DNA from: an uncultured Methylophilaceae bacterium
GTDB taxonomy: Bacteria > Pseudomonadota > Gammaproteobacteria > Burkholderiales > Methylophilaceae
Direction of reading: 5' to 3'
Assembly (NCBI GenBank): GCA_963977845.1
Contig: CAXBPZ010000001.1
Location: 45,028-109,027, forward strand
DNA length: 64,000 nucleotides
Both the position numbers and the translations under genes were made by a program. Positions 54,820 to 60,111 of this stretch are shown here, one piece after another; positions within the stretch are counted from its first letter, which is position 1, and each line of letters opens with the position of its first letter. The notes under the pieces were generated by a model. The model was given only the letters and a program-made list of their open reading frames with translations. It ran no database searches and had not been told where the DNA came from.

Positions 54820-54895
54820 GGGTCGGTAGCTCAGTCGGTAGAGCAGCGGACTTTTAATCCGTTGGTCGTGGGTTCGAATCCCGCCCGACCCACCA
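54820..54895 (+). tRNA. tRNA-Lys(UUU)
   Basis: Hand-folded 76-nt cloverleaf; anticodon arm GCGGA-CU-UUU-AA-UCCGU, GGUUCGAAUCC T arm, encoded CCA. Confidence 0.96.
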
Positions 54896-55777
54896 CTATA
54901 TTAACTTTTCCCCTGTCAGTCTTTGTAATACTTCAAGTGGACTTTTCTTTCTAAAATATTGTTTTGATGGGGACAGATGAAACGTTTGCTCCAACATAAA
55001 TTGTCCAGACATCACAGCATGTGCTGCTTGATCTGAAAAACAAATCCATACAGTACCTGGCTTAAAAGGCATAGTAATTTGAGGGGAATTTTTTTGATAT
55101 TGCATGTCTGATTTCATTGCGTCATGAAGTCCAAGCATCAAATGATCGTATTTACTTCGGAACGATTTAGTAATACCTAAAAAATTAATTATATTTGCTT
55201 GTAAGTATGAGTATGGTTTTATGGTGTGTAGATATCGCTTTGCAATATCTTCAAATGGTTCACCAATGCGCCATACTCTGGGTTTTTTGACTGGATTAAC
55301 GTTTATAAAAACCCTTAGAATTCTTTCCCCATAATTTGGTCTGGATGGAAAAGCATCAACATGCAGTCTTTTATCATCAGCTCGCCATGAAGTCACTCTT
55401 GATTTAACCTCTATTGGCCTGAAACTGGTTGGCGCTATTTTTAAATGGTTCTTATACTTTGGAAATGCCGAAAAAATAAGTGTTGAGGCATTGTTTTTAA
55501 ATCTTTTAATCATTGCACTTAATTCTTTAATTTCTTTTTCTGAGCCATTAGCTCCCTTTAAATTGCCTTTTGAATCAAGACTAATGTTTCGTGAATTTTT
55601 ATTAAGAATGGTCGGCGTAAAAAATTTTTTCTCATGAGTTGCAATCGAAAATTTAAGATTTTCAATATAAAGAACCTTGCCATCTTCCAGGTCTTTTGCC
55701 CATTGAGATTGAAATTTTTGTAACCTCCATGAAGAAGCTTTAATTTTTACAAGCTGAGAATTTTTTTGATTAATCAT
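54896..55777 (-). CDS. kdoO: Kdo hydroxylase family protein (Fe(II)/2-oxoglutarate dioxygenase, Kdo to Ko)
   Basis: SFRP..V..R..SWRADDKRLHVDAFPSRPN.GERILRVF.NVNP, RVWRIGEPF, YDHLML.LHD.MK.D, HAVMSGQ..LEQT. Family recognised from memory, not by search. Confidence 0.8.
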   Translation of the reverse strand: MINQKNSQLVKIKASSWRLQKFQSQWAKDLEDGKVLYIENLKFSIATHEKKFFTPTILNKNSRNISLDSKGNLKGANGSEKEIKELSAMIKRFKNNASTLIFSAFPKYKNHLKIAPTSFRPIEVKSRVTSWRADDKRLHVDAFPSRPNYGERILRVFINVNPVKKPRVWRIGEPFEDIAKRYLHTIKPYSYLQANIINFLGITKSFRSKYDHLMLGLHDAMKSDMQYQKNSPQITMPFKPGTVWICFSDQAAHAVMSGQFMLEQTFHLSPSKQYFRKKSPLEVLQRLTGEKLI

Positions 55778-55810
55778 AAAAAAGATTTATTTTTTTCATT
55801 AATAATAAAG

Positions 55811-55852
55811 ATTATATGTTCTTAAGAATACTAACAATTGATTTAAATCAAT
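55811..55852 (-). promoter_or_regulatory. FNR/CRP-family consensus box plus TATAAT -10 upstream of kdoO
   Basis: Palindrome ATTGATTTAAATCAAT at 55837-55852 (TTGAT-N4-ATCAA); minus-strand TATAAT at 55816-55811. Confidence 0.5.
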
Positions 55853-55872
55853 GTAGATATTTTTAATGAATT

Positions 55873-55949
55873 TGGCGCGCCCGAAGAGATTCGAACTCCT
55901 GACCCCTTGGTTCGAAGCCAAGTACTCTATCCAGCTGAGCTACGGGCGC
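55873..55949 (-). tRNA. tRNA-Arg(UCG)
   Basis: 77-nt cloverleaf; anticodon arm CUUGG-CU-UCG-AA-CCAAG; encoded CCA. Confidence 0.92.
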
Positions 55950-55974
55950 ATAAATAGTAGGAATGATATAAAAG

Positions 55975-56051
55975 TGGCGCGCCCGAAGAGATTCGAACTC
56001 CTGACCCCTTGGTTCGTAGCCAAGTACTCTATCCAGCTGAGCTACGGGCGC
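55975..56051 (-). tRNA. tRNA-Arg(ACG)
   Basis: 77-nt cloverleaf; anticodon arm CUUGG-CU-ACG-AA-CCAAG; encoded CCA. Confidence 0.96.
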
Positions 56052-56084: not shown

Positions 56085-56178
56085 TGGCGGAGAGCGAGGG
56101 ATTCGAACCCTCGATACAGGTTTAAGCCCGTATGCTTCCTTAGCAGGGAAGTGCCTTCGACCACTCGGCCAGCTCTCC
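56085..56178 (-). tRNA. tRNA-Ser(GCU)
   Basis: 94 nt with long variable arm; anticodon arm CUUCC-CU-GCU-AA-GGAAG; encoded CCA. Confidence 0.95.
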
Positions 56179-56188
56179 GGAAGCGCGA

Positions 56189-56217
56189 ACGATACGCTAA
56201 ATTGCTTTAAAAATCAA
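56189..56217 (-). promoter_or_regulatory. Sigma70-like promoter for the Ser-Arg-Arg tRNA operon
   Basis: Minus strand TTGATT, 17-nt spacer, TATCGT, then a GC-rich discriminator (TCGCGC). Confidence 0.5.
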
Positions 56218-56227
56218 TTTCTAACGC

Positions 56228-57451
56228 CTAAGCGTCAAGTCCAAAAGCTTTATGAAGCGCTCTAACTGCAAGTTCTAAATATTTTTCGTCTATAAGCACT
56301 GAAATTTTTATCTCACTTGTAGAGATCATATTGATATTGATTCCCTCTTCAGACAAGGTTCTAAACATTTGGCTTGCAACACCTACATGTGAACGCATGC
56401 CAACGCCTACGATAGAGACTTTTGCAATTTTATCATTTCCATTTACCTCTTTAGCACCCACATGATTTTTAACTTTTTCATTAAGAATTGTTAGGGCTTT
56501 ATTTAAATCATTTTTATTAACGGTAAATGTAAAATCTGTTGTTCCAACAGCGCCTACGTTTTGAATAATCATATCGACGTCAATATTAGCGTCTGCAATA
56601 GGGCCTAAAATTTGATAAGCAATACCTGGTTTATCTGGCACACCAAGAACAGTGATTTTGGCTTCATCACGATTAAAAGCAATACCTGAAATAATGGGCT
56701 GTTCCATGTTATTTTTTTCCTCAAATGTAATTAAAGTGCCGTCACCTTCTTCCTCGAAACTTGATAGCACCCTTAACTTAACTTTGTATTTTCCTGCAAA
56801 TTCGACAGATCTAATTTGAAGTACTTTTGATCCTAAACTTGCCATCTCAAGCATTTCTTCAAAAGTAATTGAATCTAATTTTTTAGCCTCGGGTACAACT
56901 CTCGGATCTGTTGTATAAATACCATCTACATCTGTATAAATTTGACATTCATCGGCCTTTAGCGCAGCTGCGAGGGCAACGCCAGTAGTATCAGAGCCAC
57001 CGCGTCCAAGAGTGGTAATGTTGTCTTTTTCATCCACACCTTGAAATCCAGCAACGACCACGACATAACCCTTATCTAAATCTTCTTGAATGTTGTTATG
57101 GTCTATTTTTAAAATTCTTGCTTTAGTGTGAGCATCATCAGTGAGAATTTTTACTTGAGAACCTGTATAGCTTTTTGCTTTAATACCAAGATCAATTAAA
57201 GCAAGAGCGGTCATGCCAATACTTACTTGTTCACCCGTAGATACCATTACATCTAATTCTCGTGGATCAGGTTCTTCCATAATTTCTTTTGCTAGACCAA
57301 TCAGTCTATTCGTTTCTCCAGACATCGCAGAAACTACCACCACCACTTGGTGCCCAAGCGATTTATAGCGAGCTACGCGTCGTGCGACAGCACGAATTCT
57401 TTCAGGGGTTCCAACGGAAGTACCACCATATTTTTGTACAATTAAACTCAT
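56228..57451 (-). CDS. lysC: Aspartate kinase
   Basis: VQKYGGTSV, TLGRGGSD, DVDGIYTTDPR, two ACT domains. Confidence 0.96.
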   Translation of the reverse strand: MSLIVQKYGGTSVGTPERIRAVARRVARYKSLGHQVVVVVSAMSGETNRLIGLAKEIMEEPDPRELDVMVSTGEQVSIGMTALALIDLGIKAKSYTGSQVKILTDDAHTKARILKIDHNNIQEDLDKGYVVVVAGFQGVDEKDNITTLGRGGSDTTGVALAAALKADECQIYTDVDGIYTTDPRVVPEAKKLDSITFEEMLEMASLGSKVLQIRSVEFAGKYKVKLRVLSSFEEEGDGTLITFEEKNNMEQPIISGIAFNRDEAKITVLGVPDKPGIAYQILGPIADANIDVDMIIQNVGAVGTTDFTFTVNKNDLNKALTILNEKVKNHVGAKEVNGNDKIAKVSIVGVGMRSHVGVASQMFRTLSEEGININMISTSEIKISVLIDEKYLELAVRALHKAFGLDA

Positions 57452-57456
57452 AAATT

Positions 57457-60111
57457 TTAGTTAAGAATTATTTTCTTTATTTTAGTTAAGCAATCATTGA
57501 AAGCTTGATCAAGAAGTTCGGGTTTTGATCCACCAGCCATTGCTAAGTCAGGCTTGCCACCACCTTTGCCTCCAATTGAAATGGCTAATTCACTAGCAAT
57601 TTCACCCGCTTTTATTTTAGCTATAAGATCTTGTGTCACACCAACAGCTAAAGTGACTTTGCCTTGATCAACACCACTTAAAATTATAACTGCACTTTTA
57701 AGTTCTGATTTAAGTTTATCAATTGTCTCCCGTAAGCCTTGAGGATCGGAAGTGGCTAATTTTTCCATTACAACTTTGACTTCTCCTACGGAGATAGCTT
57801 TTTTAGATAAATTGCCACTTTCAGAAGATGTGATTTTTGATTTTAATTGCTGAATATTTTTTTCTTGTTCCTTGATCTGCTCTTGAATTTGGTCAATTTT
57901 GTTTAAAAGCTCTGAGGAAGGCACTTTAAGGCTGTGCGCTAGTCGATCAATGATTGAAACATGTTCATTTATATATTGAATAACATTAGATCCTGTTGTA
58001 GCTTCAATACGTCGAATACCAGAAGAAATGCCAGTTTCTGAGATAATTTTAAAGGCGCCAATATCGCCTGTCCTTTTTACATGTGTTCCGCCGCATAATT
58101 CTTTGCTTGATCCTATACTAAGGACTCTGACCTCATCAGAATATTTTTCACCAAAGAGCATCATGGCCCCACTTTTCTTAGCATCATCTAAATGCATCGT
58201 TTGTGCTTTGGTATCAGTATTGTTAAGAATTTCCTGATTTACGAACATTTCTACAGATTTAATTTCATCTGCACTTAGAGCATGGGGATGAGAAAAATCA
58301 AAGCGTGTTTTAGTATCATCGACAAGAGAGCCTTTTTGTTCTACATGATTGCCTAGCGTAATTTTTAAAGCTTTGTGAAGTAAATGAGTTGCCGAATGAT
58401 TACGCATAATATTTTTTCTTAAATCATTTTCAACTGTTGCTGTAACTTCATCAGAAACTTTTATACTGTTTGTTTCAACAACACCATAATGAGCAAAAAT
58501 TTTTGCTTTAATTTTTTGTGTGTCTTCAACTCTAAAAAGACCATTTGAAGTTTTAATGATACCTCTATCACCTACTTGACCCCCAGATTCTGCGTAAAAA
58601 GGAGTGGTATCAAGAATCACAATACCTAAATCGTCTTTGACAAGTTCTTTTTTAGATTCATCGCCTTTAAATAAAGCTAGCACTTTAGCTTTGCATTCTG
58701 TGACTTCATAACCTTTAAATTCTGTCGCTTCGCCGCTATAGTCGACGTTCATTTTCATTTTAAACTTATTAGAGGATCGAGCCATTGACTTTTGTGCTTC
58801 CATGGCGGCATCAAAACCTTTTTGGTCAATTGAAATATTTTTTTCTCGACAAATATCAGCGGTGAGATCAAGAGGAAATCCAAAAGTATCATGGAGTTTA
58901 AAAGCAATTTGACCATCAAAAGTTTTTTGATTTTTTTGAGTAAGTGTTTGAATAGACTCTTCTAATATATTCATGCCATTTTCAATCGTTTCGAAAAATC
59001 GTTCTTCTTCTTGCATAAGTGATAATGCAATTTTTTGTTTATTTTTTTCAATGTCAGGATAGGCTTTGCCTAACATGCGAACAACATCATCAACTAATTT
59101 ATAAAAGAAAGGCTGTCTGCAACCTAGTTTATATCCATGCCTTATAGCTCTGCGAATAATTCTTCTTAAAACATATCCTCGACCTTCATTACTTGGAATC
59201 ACACCATCTGAAATTAAAAATGTACAAGCGCGAATATGGTCTGATAACACCTTTAATGAGGGATGAGTCAGATCAGATGTTTTTGTAATTTTTGCTGCTG
59301 ATTGAATGAGCGGCACAAATAAATCTGTTTCATAATTAGCATGCACACCTTGAAGCACAGCACTGATTCGTTCCAAACCCATGCCTGTATCAACGGAAGG
59401 TTTTGGCAACGCATGCATAACACCTTTTTCATCGCGGTTATATTGCATAAAAACAATATTCCAAATTTCAATGAAACGGTCACCATCTTCATCTTTAGAC
59501 CCAGGAGGTCCCCCAGGTATATGATTTCCATGATCATAGAAAATTTCAGTACATGGACCGCATGGACCTGTATCGCCCATCATCCAAAAATTATCTGATG
59601 CATATTTAGCGCCTTTATTATCACCAATACGGATAATTTTTTCAGGTTGAATACCGATTGACTTTGCCCAGATGTCATAAGCTTCATCATCTTCACTATA
59701 GACAGTTACTAAAAGTCTTTCTTTAGGTATTTTGTATACTTCAGTGAGGAGCTCCCATGCATAATGAATGGCATCTTTTTTAAAATAATCTCCAAAACTA
59801 AAGTTTCCGAGCATTTCAAAAAAAGTGTGATGTCTTGCTGTATAGCCTACATTTTCAAGGTCGTTATGTTTACCACCGGCTCTGACACATTTCTGGCTTG
59901 AAGCTGCTCTTGAATAGTTTCGTTTATCAAAACCTAAGAATACATCTTTGAATTGATTCATACCTGCATTTGTGAATAGCAAGGTAGGATCTTCTCCGGG
60001 CACTAATGAGCTAGAAGCAACAACTTGATGTTGTTTTTTCTTAAAAAAATCTAGAAATATATTTCTAATTTCTTCGCTAGAAAGGATTGGATGATTTAAT
60101 GAAGTCGACAT
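57457..60111 (-). CDS. alaS: Alanine--tRNA ligase
   Basis: [26 protein letters not shown], editing HSATH and ELCGGTHV, C-terminal GGKGGG. Confidence 0.98.

What the first reader, a model, noticed from the sequence alone, without database searches (positions are those of the whole stretch)
55873..56051. Tandem tRNA-Arg copies differing only at the wobble base (ACG vs UCG)
Seen: two 77-nt genes offset by 102 bp, identical except at 55915 vs 56017, which is anticodon position 34. Established: most Proteobacteria read CGU/CGC/CGA with TadA-edited tRNA-Arg(ICG) and CGG with CCG; I:A wobble on CGA is inefficient, and Ser(GCU)-Arg(ACG)-Arg(ACG) clusters are common. Inference: a duplicate was recruited by a single mutation into a UCG isoacceptor. 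This would suit an AT-rich genome in which CGA codons occur readily (not counted) and might make tRNA-Arg(CCG) dispensable.
Basis: partly seen in the sequence, partly recalled or inferred. Interest (0 to 1): 0.65.

Follow-up and report, generated by a model that had tools for sequence, protein, structure and literature searches.

The report
Arginine tRNA duplicate with new anticodon
A tandem copy of the arginine tRNA(ACG) gene carries one changed wobble base, which makes a UCG tRNA; it is real, old and conserved in all pelagic Methylophilaceae, and it is a clean but unsurprising case of a known way tRNA sets evolve.

Summary
Window 55873-55949(-) is tRNA-Arg(UCG) and 55975-56051(-) is tRNA-Arg(ACG). 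They are 76/77 identical and differ only at position 34. Both lie downstream of recA-recX-alaS-lysC-tRNA-Ser(GCU), the counterpart of the E. coli serV-argVYZQ operon.

The organism is a Candidatus Methylopumilus (36% G+C). The variant is not an error or a private SNP:
- The same pair occurs in three species-level lineages that differ at 40-46% of four-fold sites in lysC.
- It occurs in the complete Ca. M. rimovensis genome and in independent metagenomes and metatranscriptomes.
- A published tRNA table lists it in Ca. M. planktonicus and four marine OM43 strains.

Methylotenera-like relatives have only ACG at this locus, so the change dates to about the base of the pelagic clade. Near-identity reflects constraint and probably gene conversion, not recency.

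That table holds no tRNA-Arg(CCG) for these genomes. CGA is 33% of CGN codons here against 7% in relatives without UCG. The likely mechanism is that ICG reads CGU/CGC and UCG reads CGA/CGG in place of CCG.

A low-G+C gammaproteobacterial clade did the same at the orthologous locus, and tRNA-Arg(UCG) is widespread in metagenomes.

Verdict: a new member of a known kind, of modest interest.

The parts
55873..55949 (-). tRNA-Arg(UCG), 77 nt with encoded CCA. U34 corresponds to + strand base 55915 (A). Carries A20, C35, G36 and G73.
   Evidence: ARAGORN; Rfam RF00005 at 66.4 bits; alignment. Exact-match contigs occur in DNA run X3 and RNA runs X18, X19 and X50. The gene is 77/77 identical in L001, L002 and L201-L210.
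55950..55974 (-). 25-nt AT-rich spacer between the two Arg genes. It varies in length (24-31 nt) and sequence among Methylopumilus lineages.
   Evidence: Sequence; spacer comparison.
55975..56051 (-). tRNA-Arg(ACG), the presumed TadA substrate that becomes ICG. A34 corresponds to + strand base 56017 (T). The body is identical to the tRNA-Arg(ACG) of several betaproteobacterial loci from other families, and differs from most of the rest by one to a few bases.
   Evidence: ARAGORN; Rfam at 63.6 bits; comparison of 42 Arg tRNAs.
56085..56178 (-). tRNA-Ser(GCU), first gene of the tRNA cluster and the counterpart of E. coli serV.
   Evidence: ARAGORN; Rfam; E. coli serV-argVYZQ annotation.
56221..56238 (-). 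Terminator-like hairpin at the end of lysC, upstream of the tRNA cluster. The tRNA promoter must lie in about 56179-56220, but no consensus sigma-70 match was found there.
56228..57451 (-). lysC (aspartate kinase), the conserved upstream neighbour, used as the synteny anchor.
   Evidence: NCBIfam NF005155, 695 bits.
57457..60111 (-). alaS (alanine--tRNA ligase), part of the conserved recA-recX-alaS-...-Ser-Arg neighbourhood.
   Evidence: TIGR00344, 1047.9 bits; E. coli synteny.
54896..55777 (-). kdoO (Kdo hydroxylase). This is strain-variable cargo between tRNA-Arg(UCG) and tRNA-Lys(UUU), and it is not part of the tRNA function.
   Evidence: NF053719 at 398.7 bits; PF11004. Absent from L001, L002 and L202-L210, and replaced by an integrase island in L201.
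54820..54895 (+). tRNA-Lys(UUU), convergent to the cluster and the far border of the variable stretch.
   Evidence: ARAGORN; Rfam at 78.2 bits.

Best explanation
The two genes are the distal part of the conserved proteobacterial serV-argV-type tRNA operon. Here it reads recA-recX-alaS-lysC | tRNA-Ser(GCU)-tRNA-Arg(ACG)-tRNA-Arg(UCG).

Origin. This operon commonly carries 1-4 tandem tRNA-Arg(ACG) copies. In the ancestor of the pelagic, genome-streamlined Methylophilaceae (freshwater Ca. Methylopumilus plus marine OM43), one tandem copy took an A34-to-T change. That made a new isoacceptor, tRNA-Arg(UCG). ArgRS identity elements (A20, C35, G36, G73) are untouched, so the new tRNA should still be charged with arginine. 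With U34 it is no longer a TadA substrate.

Division of labour (inferred). The ACG copy, edited to ICG, reads CGU and CGC. The UCG copy reads CGA and CGG. It thereby replaces tRNA-Arg(CCG), which these genomes lack, and removes the poor I:A reading of CGA. Under AT-biased drift, CGA has become a main CGN codon.

Maintenance. The pair is old. It stays nearly identical because the tRNA-Arg body is under very strong constraint and the two copies probably undergo gene conversion. Selection keeps position 34 different.

Shown: the genes, their identity, fixation across species, phylogenetic bracket, codon shift and absence of CCG in relatives.
Inferred: decoding roles, charging, U34 modification and TadA retention.
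For: Anatomy.

Synteny with E. coli recX-alaS-csrA-serV-argVYZQ.

Organism: lysC hits are named Ca. Methylopumilus.

Fixation:
- The same ACG+UCG pair is present in L001 and L002.
- It is present in the complete Ca. M. rimovensis genome CP040985.1 and in 9 metagenome contigs.
- Both genes are exact in all 12 of these loci, although the three lineages differ at 40-46% of four-fold sites in lysC and in spacer sequence.

Independent data:
- Exact UCG contigs occur in DNA run X3 and in RNA runs X18, X19 and X50.
- UCG-specific words occur in more than 30 DNA and RNA runs from many studies.

Bracket:
- 29 other betaproteobacterial loci have one or two ACG copies after Ser(GCU) and none has UCG. These include the Methylotenera-like loci with 82-85% lysC identity.
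- Table S2 of PMC9004378 lists adjacent ArgACG+ArgTCG in Ca. M. planktonicus and in OM43 strains MBRSH7, KB13, HTCC2181 and H5P1.

CCG:
- 'ArgCCG' occurs 0 times in that file, against ArgTCG 512, ArgACG 704, ArgCCT 342 and ArgTCT 1292.
- No contig of isolate-like run X7 is at least 80% like either of two CCG references.

Codons:
- Window counts are CGT 113, CGC 81, CGA 127, CGG 26, AGA 348 and AGG 56.
- The CGA share of CGN is 0.33 with UCG and 0.07 without. Other boxes' A-share is 0.18-0.46 in both groups, apart from GGA (see evidence against).

Concerted evolution: in H5P1 both copies share 2 substitutions relative to the other strains, yet differ from each other only at one base.

Precedent: PMC3711424 proposes UCG gain by duplication of ACG. 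PMC3868979 documents anticodon switching, mostly at the first anticodon base.
Against: - No direct evidence of aminoacylation, decoding range or U34 modification. The RNA evidence consists of Logan contigs from metatranscriptomes, which can contain DNA and break at the repeat.
- CCG absence in the window's own genome rests on relatives' tables and on one run at an 80% likeness threshold. A clean positive control could not be run, because no isolate run of a CCG-bearing Methylophilaceae was found.
- tadA was not examined.
- The rise in CGA is not specific. GGA rose similarly, from 6-8% to 23%, so AT drift or relaxed codon selection may explain much of it.
- Because the ACG body is invariant over whole families, identity of the bodies cannot by itself distinguish local duplication from homogenisation of an older gene.
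Confidence: 0.78

Rival explanations
1. Assembly or sequencing error, or a private SNP of this one assembly, in what is really an ACG-ACG tandem.
For: Logan contigs of the isolate-like runs X7 and X10 show only the ACG branch. ACG-ACG tandems exist in other betaproteobacteria: L021, L027, L041, L051 and L078.
Against: The UCG base is present in 12 independent loci from three species-level lineages, including a complete genome. It is also present in X3, X18, X19, X27, X39 and X50 and in five published genomes. The missing branch in X7 and X10 is the expected popping of a one-base bubble by the assembler; in X27 and X39 the UCG branch is the one that was kept.
Confidence: 0.01
2. The UCG copy is a redundant or decaying duplicate with no decoding role, either not expressed or not charged.
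For: There are no tRNA-seq or charging data. No consensus promoter was found.
Against: There are 0 changes in 77 nt across lineages that differ at 40-46% of four-fold sites and have diverged spacers. The gene is retained in 1.2-1.3 Mb streamlined genomes from lakes to the ocean. All ArgRS identity elements are intact. Exact full-length contigs occur in metatranscriptomes. With no CCG tRNA, the 26 CGG codons in the window need a reader.
Confidence: 0.04
3. The UCG gene is not a local duplicate with a point mutation. It is an older or horizontally acquired UCG gene that landed next to ACG and was later homogenised with it by gene conversion everywhere except position 34.
For: Gene conversion does seem to act on the pair (H5P1). 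tRNA-Arg(UCG) with a similar anticodon arm is widespread. PMC6063277 calls the ancestral bacterial state of tRNA-Arg(UCG) ambiguous. Integrase genes lie next to the UCG gene in L201 and L212.
Against: The orthologous slot in outgroups holds 0-2 ACG copies and never UCG. Tandem ACG copies are the normal raw material at this locus. No partial tRNA repeat or att-like scar exists in the window. One base change is the most parsimonious route.
Confidence: 0.1
4. The UCG tRNA carries an unmodified U34 and reads all four CGN codons (superwobble). The ACG copy and TadA would then be becoming dispensable, as in some Mollicutes.
For: PMC3711424 describes Mollicutes that end with UCG alone. The genomes here are streamlined and AT-rich.
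Against: The ACG copy is perfectly conserved in every lineage examined. CGU and CGC still make up 60% of CGN codons. No lineage that has lost ACG was seen.
Confidence: 0.07

Closest known systems
E. coli serV-argVYZQ tRNA operon (recX-alaS-csrA-serV-argV-argY-argZ-argQ)
   Same: Same neighbourhood (recX and alaS upstream) and same order: tRNA-Ser(GCU) followed by tandem 77-nt tRNA-Arg genes.
   Different: E. coli has four ACG copies and no UCG, and csrA sits where lysC sits here. E. coli reads CGG with a separate tRNA-Arg(CCG), argX (my own knowledge).
CGN decoding rearrangement in Mollicutes (Yokobori et al. 2013, PMC3711424)
   Same: tRNA-Arg(CCG) is lost in small AT-rich genomes and a tRNA-Arg(UCG) is gained. 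The authors suggest the gain arose by duplication of the ACG gene plus an A34-to-U34 change.
   Different: In Mollicutes the origin could not be resolved, and ACG and TadA are later replaced or lost. Here the parent and daughter genes still sit side by side and differ by one base, ACG is retained everywhere, the bacteria are free-living Proteobacteria, and the state of TadA is unknown.
Anticodon switching / tRNA gene recruitment (Yona et al. 2013, PMC3868979; Saks, Sampson & Abelson 1998)
   Same: A tRNA gene is closer in sequence to genes with another anticodon than to its own kind. The change is at the first anticodon base and alters the isoacceptor supply.
   Different: That survey found switching in only 8 of 416 bacteria. 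Here the switch created an isoacceptor that the lineage lacked, rather than rebalancing copy numbers, and it has been stable across a whole clade.
Gain and loss of 'nontarget' tRNAs of the inosine modification (Diwan & Agashe 2018, PMC6063277)
   Same: tRNA-Arg(UCG) is treated there as a nontarget tRNA whose presence varies with GC shifts and with the status of the modification.
   Different: That study is a presence/absence survey. It does not show the gene-level origin and does not treat Methylophilaceae specifically.
Low-G+C gammaproteobacterial clade with alaS-lysC-csrA-Ser(GCU)-Arg(ACG)-Arg(UCG) (L082, L212, L213, L215)
   Same: Same locus, same gene order and same wobble change in a 39-41% G+C genome.
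   Different: The origin is independent (lysC is only 59% identical) and a 73%-identity relative, L217, has ACG only. The two copies have diverged at 3-5 further positions, including shared changes at gene positions 41 and 45.

Membership tests
Bacterial tRNA-Arg gene (RF00005), UCG isoacceptor | Cloverleaf with a 7-nt anticodon loop and a score above the Rfam gathering score | tested here: met
   66.4 bits against a gathering score of 29; ARAGORN call.
Bacterial tRNA-Arg gene (RF00005), UCG isoacceptor | ArgRS identity elements: A20, C35, G36 (or U36) and A/G73 (my knowledge of E. coli ArgRS) | tested here: met
   Read directly from the sequence: GGAUA D-loop with A20, anticodon U-C-G, discriminator G before CCA. 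All are identical to the ACG copy.
Bacterial tRNA-Arg gene (RF00005), UCG isoacceptor | Expressed, processed and charged with arginine | tested here: inconclusive
   Exact 69-79-nt contigs occur in metatranscriptomes X18, X19 and X50. Contigs cannot show charging and may include DNA.
Anticodon switch after tandem duplication (isoacceptor birth) | The nearest paralogue carries a different anticodon and differs essentially only there | tested here: met
   76/77 identity to the adjacent ACG gene.
Anticodon switch after tandem duplication (isoacceptor birth) | Outgroups carry the parental anticodon at the orthologous position | tested here: met
   29 other betaproteobacterial loci have one or two ACG copies after lysC-Ser(GCU) and none has UCG. 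E. coli has four ACG copies.
Anticodon switch after tandem duplication (isoacceptor birth) | The new anticodon is fixed and under selection, not a polymorphism | tested here: met
   12 loci from three diverged lineages are exact. Five published genomes, including marine OM43, also carry it.
Mollicutes-type CGN decoding rearrangement (PMC3711424) | tRNA-Arg(CCG) gene absent | tested here: met
   'ArgCCG' occurs 0 times in Table S2 of PMC9004378, which covers Ca. M. planktonicus and OM43. No CCG-like contig is found in X7. This is indirect for the window's own genome.
Mollicutes-type CGN decoding rearrangement (PMC3711424) | TadA degenerate or lost, with ACG replaced by GCG or lost | tested here: not met
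   The ACG gene is retained intact in every lineage. 'ArgGCG' occurs 0 times. tadA itself was not examined; no deaminase motif was found in the window's ORFs.
serV-argV-type tRNA operon | recX-alaS upstream, then tRNA-Ser(GCU) followed by tandem tRNA-Arg genes on the same strand | tested here: met

The most novel reading that the evidence does not exclude
At the base of the pelagic Methylophilaceae, the standard proteobacterial ICG+CCG way of reading CGN codons was replaced by ICG+UCG. This happened through one wobble-base mutation in a tandem argV copy, followed by loss of the CCG gene. The pair has since evolved in concert, with selection holding only position 34 apart. The same solution arose independently at the orthologous locus in a low-G+C gammaproteobacterial clade, and UCG without CCG is also seen in SAR11. 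Together these would make it a repeatable signature of AT-driven genome streamlining, and a possible first step toward life without TadA in free-living bacteria.
Probability: 0.45. Interest if true: 0.45.

Novelty: new member of a known kind. Interest (0 to 1): 0.3.

Why it matters
Parent and daughter genes still lie side by side and differ by a single base. That makes this an unusually legible natural example of how a bacterium gains a new isoacceptor and drops another (CCG) while its codon usage shifts.

It occurs in one of the most abundant groups of freshwater and coastal bacteria, for which cultures exist. Expression, charging, U34 modification and CGA/CGG decoding could therefore be measured directly.

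It does not reveal a new mechanism. The tRNA-Arg(UCG) gene of these bacteria is already listed in public tRNA tables, although none of the papers my searches found discusses its origin.

Tried and rejected
Only two close relatives came back, so OM43 could not be reached that way.
- The first protein search was flooded by Methylopumilus lysC at 97-100% identity.
- Logan contigs break or pop the one-base bubble between the two copies. Absence of the UCG branch in X7 and X10, or of the ACG branch in X19, therefore means nothing, and relative expression cannot be read.
- Marine runs hold an identical UCG tRNA. The one flank seen in X50 does not match the Ser-Arg arrangement, so it was not used as evidence for OM43.
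- A positive control for detecting CCG across families could not be done, because no isolate run of Methylotenera was found.
- The supplements of PMC13092985 held no per-anticodon counts.
- The ISME J 2024 paper on genomic islands mentions other tRNAs as island borders, not this pair.
- The idea that the duplicate is an integrase att-site scar was rejected. There is no partial tRNA repeat in the window, and both copies are full length.
- No sigma-70 consensus promoter was found for the cluster.
- The rise in CGA was first read as specific relief of I:A avoidance. It was then tempered because GGA rose in parallel.

Full report
**1. The observation**

The window holds four tRNA genes:
- tRNA-Lys(UUU) at 54820-54895(+)
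- tRNA-Arg(UCG) at 55873-55949(-)
- tRNA-Arg(ACG) at 55975-56051(-)
- tRNA-Ser(GCU) at 56085-56178(-)

All four pass the Rfam tRNA model; the two Arg genes score 66.4 and 63.6 bits against a gathering score of 29. The two Arg genes are 77 nt long and are 76/77 identical. The single difference is at position 34, which is + strand base 55915 in one gene and 56017 in the other. The offset is 102 bp.

**2. Context and organism**

The genes upstream on the same strand are recA, a small ORF, alaS and lysC. Downstream lie kdoO and a convergent tRNA-Lys.

E. coli K-12 has recX-alaS-csrA-serV(GCU)-argV-argY-argZ-argQ, with four ACG copies. The window's cluster is therefore the counterpart of the serV-argV operon, a locus where tandem tRNA-Arg(ACG) copies are normal.

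The window is 34-39% G+C. Its lysC matches proteins that NCBI names Candidatus Methylopumilus, at 97-100% identity.

**3. Is the UCG base real and fixed?**

Yes.
- The same Ser(GCU)-Arg(ACG)-Arg(UCG) order is found in L001 (a MAG) and in L002 (a complete 1.32 Mb Methylophilaceae chromosome).
- It is also found in the complete Ca. M. rimovensis genome CP040985.1 and in nine metagenome contigs from different samples.
- Both tRNA genes are exact in all twelve loci.
- The window, the rimovensis group and L002 differ from one another at 40-46% of four-fold degenerate sites in lysC, and the tRNA spacers differ in length and sequence. An unconstrained 77-nt stretch would have accumulated roughly 30 differences per pair; the observed number is zero.
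- Exact contigs that span the UCG anticodon occur in an independent DNA metagenome (X3) and in metatranscriptomes (X18, X19 and the marine X50).
- Words specific to the UCG gene occur in dozens of runs.
- In the isolate-like runs X7 and X10 only the ACG branch survives in the contigs, while in X27 and X39 only the UCG branch survives. This is what bubble-popping assemblers do with a one-base difference inside a repeat, so it says nothing about absence.

**4. When did it arise?**

Among the 78 other betaproteobacterial loci fetched with lysC:
- 29 carry Arg(ACG) after Ser(GCU), five of them as ACG-ACG tandems.
- Two Gallionella loci carry Arg(CCG) there instead.
- None carries UCG.

This set includes the Methylotenera-like Methylophilaceae at 82-85% lysC identity.

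Table S2 of Buchholz et al. 2022 (PMC9004378) is an all-against-all table of tRNAscan-SE Arg tRNAs. It lists adjacent ArgACG and ArgTCG genes in:
- Ca. M. planktonicus (1078772-1078848 and 1078872-1078948)
- OM43 MBRSH7
- OM43 KB13
- OM43 HTCC2181
- OM43 H5P1

The change therefore predates the split between the freshwater and marine pelagic lineages and postdates their split from Methylotenera-like relatives. It is old.

**5. Why are the copies still identical?**

The ACG body is invariant or nearly so across many betaproteobacterial families, so constraint alone explains much of the identity.

There is also a sign of concerted evolution. In OM43 H5P1 the two copies differ from each other by one base. 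Each, however, differs by two further bases from the ACG genes of the other strains. H5P1's UCG copy also lacks the extra difference seen in the UCG copies of HTCC2181, KB13 and MBRSH7. Gene conversion between the neighbours, with selection holding position 34 apart, is the simplest reading. This is an inference.

**6. What does it do?**

The body carries A20, C35, G36 and G73, the elements that E. coli ArgRS uses (my own knowledge), and all are unchanged. Charging with arginine is therefore expected. U34 cannot be a TadA substrate.

In the same published table 'ArgCCG' occurs 0 times, against ArgTCG 512, ArgACG 704, ArgCCT 342 and ArgTCT 1292. Each tRNA in that table has a self-hit, so a CCG gene would appear if one had been predicted.

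Consistent with this, contigs of the isolate-like run X7 (1.19 Mb in total) contain nothing at least 80% like either of two tRNA-Arg(CCG) references. X10 shows only low-depth contaminants, at depth 2.4-2.7 against 21-39 for the main genome.

The window still uses 26 CGG codons, which then need the UCG tRNA.

Codon counts:

| Measure | UCG-bearing loci | 12 UCG-lacking Methylophilaceae loci |
|---|---|---|
| CGA share of CGN | 33% | 7% |
| A-ending share in Pro, Ala, Thr, Val, Leu and Ser boxes | 18-46% | 21-38% |
| GGA share of GGN | 23% | 6% |

CGA was strongly avoided in the relatives and is no longer avoided here. GGA rose in parallel, so AT drift or relaxed codon selection contributes, and cause and effect cannot be separated.

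The best-supported mechanism is that ICG reads CGU and CGC, and UCG reads CGA and CGG in place of CCG. The state of U34 and of tadA was not tested. No deaminase motif occurs in the window's ORFs, which says little for a 64-kb window.

**7. How unusual is it?**

These gave about 100 distinct tRNA-Arg(UCG) sequences on contigs of 34-73% G+C.
- One match, L082, carries lysC-Ser(GCU)-Arg(ACG)-Arg(UCG), with a lysC only 59% identical to the window's.
- Its relatives are named Gammaproteobacteria.
- Three more members of that clade at 76-87% lysC identity (39-41% G+C) carry alaS-lysC-csrA-Ser-Arg(ACG)-Arg(UCG). A 73% relative has ACG only.
- In that clade the copies differ at 3-5 further positions. 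Two of these are shared by all four loci: position 41, which turns a G-U pair of the anticodon stem into G-C, and position 45.

This is an independent occurrence of the same event at the orthologous locus. SAR11 genomes in the published table also have ArgTCG and no ArgCCG.

**8. Literature**

- Yokobori et al. 2013 (PMC3711424) describe loss of CCG and gain of UCG in Mollicutes. They propose duplication of the ACG gene with an A34-to-U34 change as one origin, but could not resolve it.
- Yona et al. 2013 (PMC3868979) define anticodon switching. They found it in 8 of 416 bacteria, mostly at the first anticodon base.
- Diwan and Agashe 2018 (PMC6063277) treat UCG as a variable 'nontarget' tRNA of the inosine modification.
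- A 2026 survey (PMC13092985) notes that a high fraction of bacteria lack UCG.
- The Methylophilaceae genome papers I searched do not discuss this pair.

**9. Verdict**

The feature is an old, fixed and functional-looking isoacceptor born by a wobble-base change in a tandem argV copy. It is a clean new example of a known process, already visible in public tRNA tables, and of modest interest.

Noticed in passing
window 54896-55872; L201:4586-7224; L001:7586-7942: The stretch between tRNA-Arg(UCG) and tRNA-Lys(UUU) varies between strains. In the window it holds kdoO (Kdo hydroxylase). In the complete Ca. M. rimovensis genome it holds DUF6641, a hypothetical gene and a phage-type integrase. In L001, L002 and L202-L210 it is only about 250-355 bp with no gene. 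It looks like a small integration hot spot next to the tRNA.
   Followed up: partly
window 54820-54898: The kdoO ORF on the minus strand ends at 54896, directly abutting the 3' end of tRNA-Lys(UUU) at 54895 on the plus strand. There is no intergenic base between them.
   Followed up: no
L044:7277-7353 and L057:7280-7356: In two Gallionella MAGs, lysC is followed by a tRNA-Arg(CCG) instead of the usual Ser(GCU)-Arg(ACG).
   Followed up: no
L078:7325-7830: A Deefgea MAG has Ser(GCU)-Arg(ACG)-Glu(UUC)-Arg(ACG)-Glu(UUC). The repeated unit there is a two-gene block.
   Followed up: no
L161:3291-5770: A metagenome contig (62% G+C) carries an array of 18 tRNA genes in about 2.5 kb, including adjacent Arg(GCG) and Arg(UCG). 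It could be a tRNA-array element or a phage.
   Followed up: no
L117:2286-3520: Two tRNA-Arg(UCG) genes lie in inverted orientation, each next to an odd tRNA-like call with a two-base anticodon (Arg|Lys 'ct').
   Followed up: no
L212:4629-4994 and L213:5109-5651: In the gammaproteobacterial clade, a phage-integrase fragment (L212) or a Tn3-type transposase fragment (L213) lies just downstream of the tRNA-Arg(UCG) gene.
   Followed up: no
PMC9004378 Table S2: SAR11 genomes (HTCC1062, H2P3, Fonsibacter LSUCC0530) list ArgTCG and no ArgCCG. OM43 KB13 and H5P1 also list low-scoring truncated extra Arg tRNAs (KB13 trna10-ArgTCT, 68 nt, score 46.6; H5P1 trna13-ArgCCT, 72 nt, score 44.4).
   Followed up: no
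runs X7, X10 and X27: The isolate-like runs contain low-depth, G+C-rich contaminant contigs, including foreign tRNA-Arg(CCG) at depth 2.4-2.7. X27 holds a second organism at depth about 107.
   Followed up: partly
L082:1546-1625: In L082 the UCG copy lacks an encoded CCA end (it reads ...GCGCGCTA), while its ACG neighbour has one.
   Followed up: no
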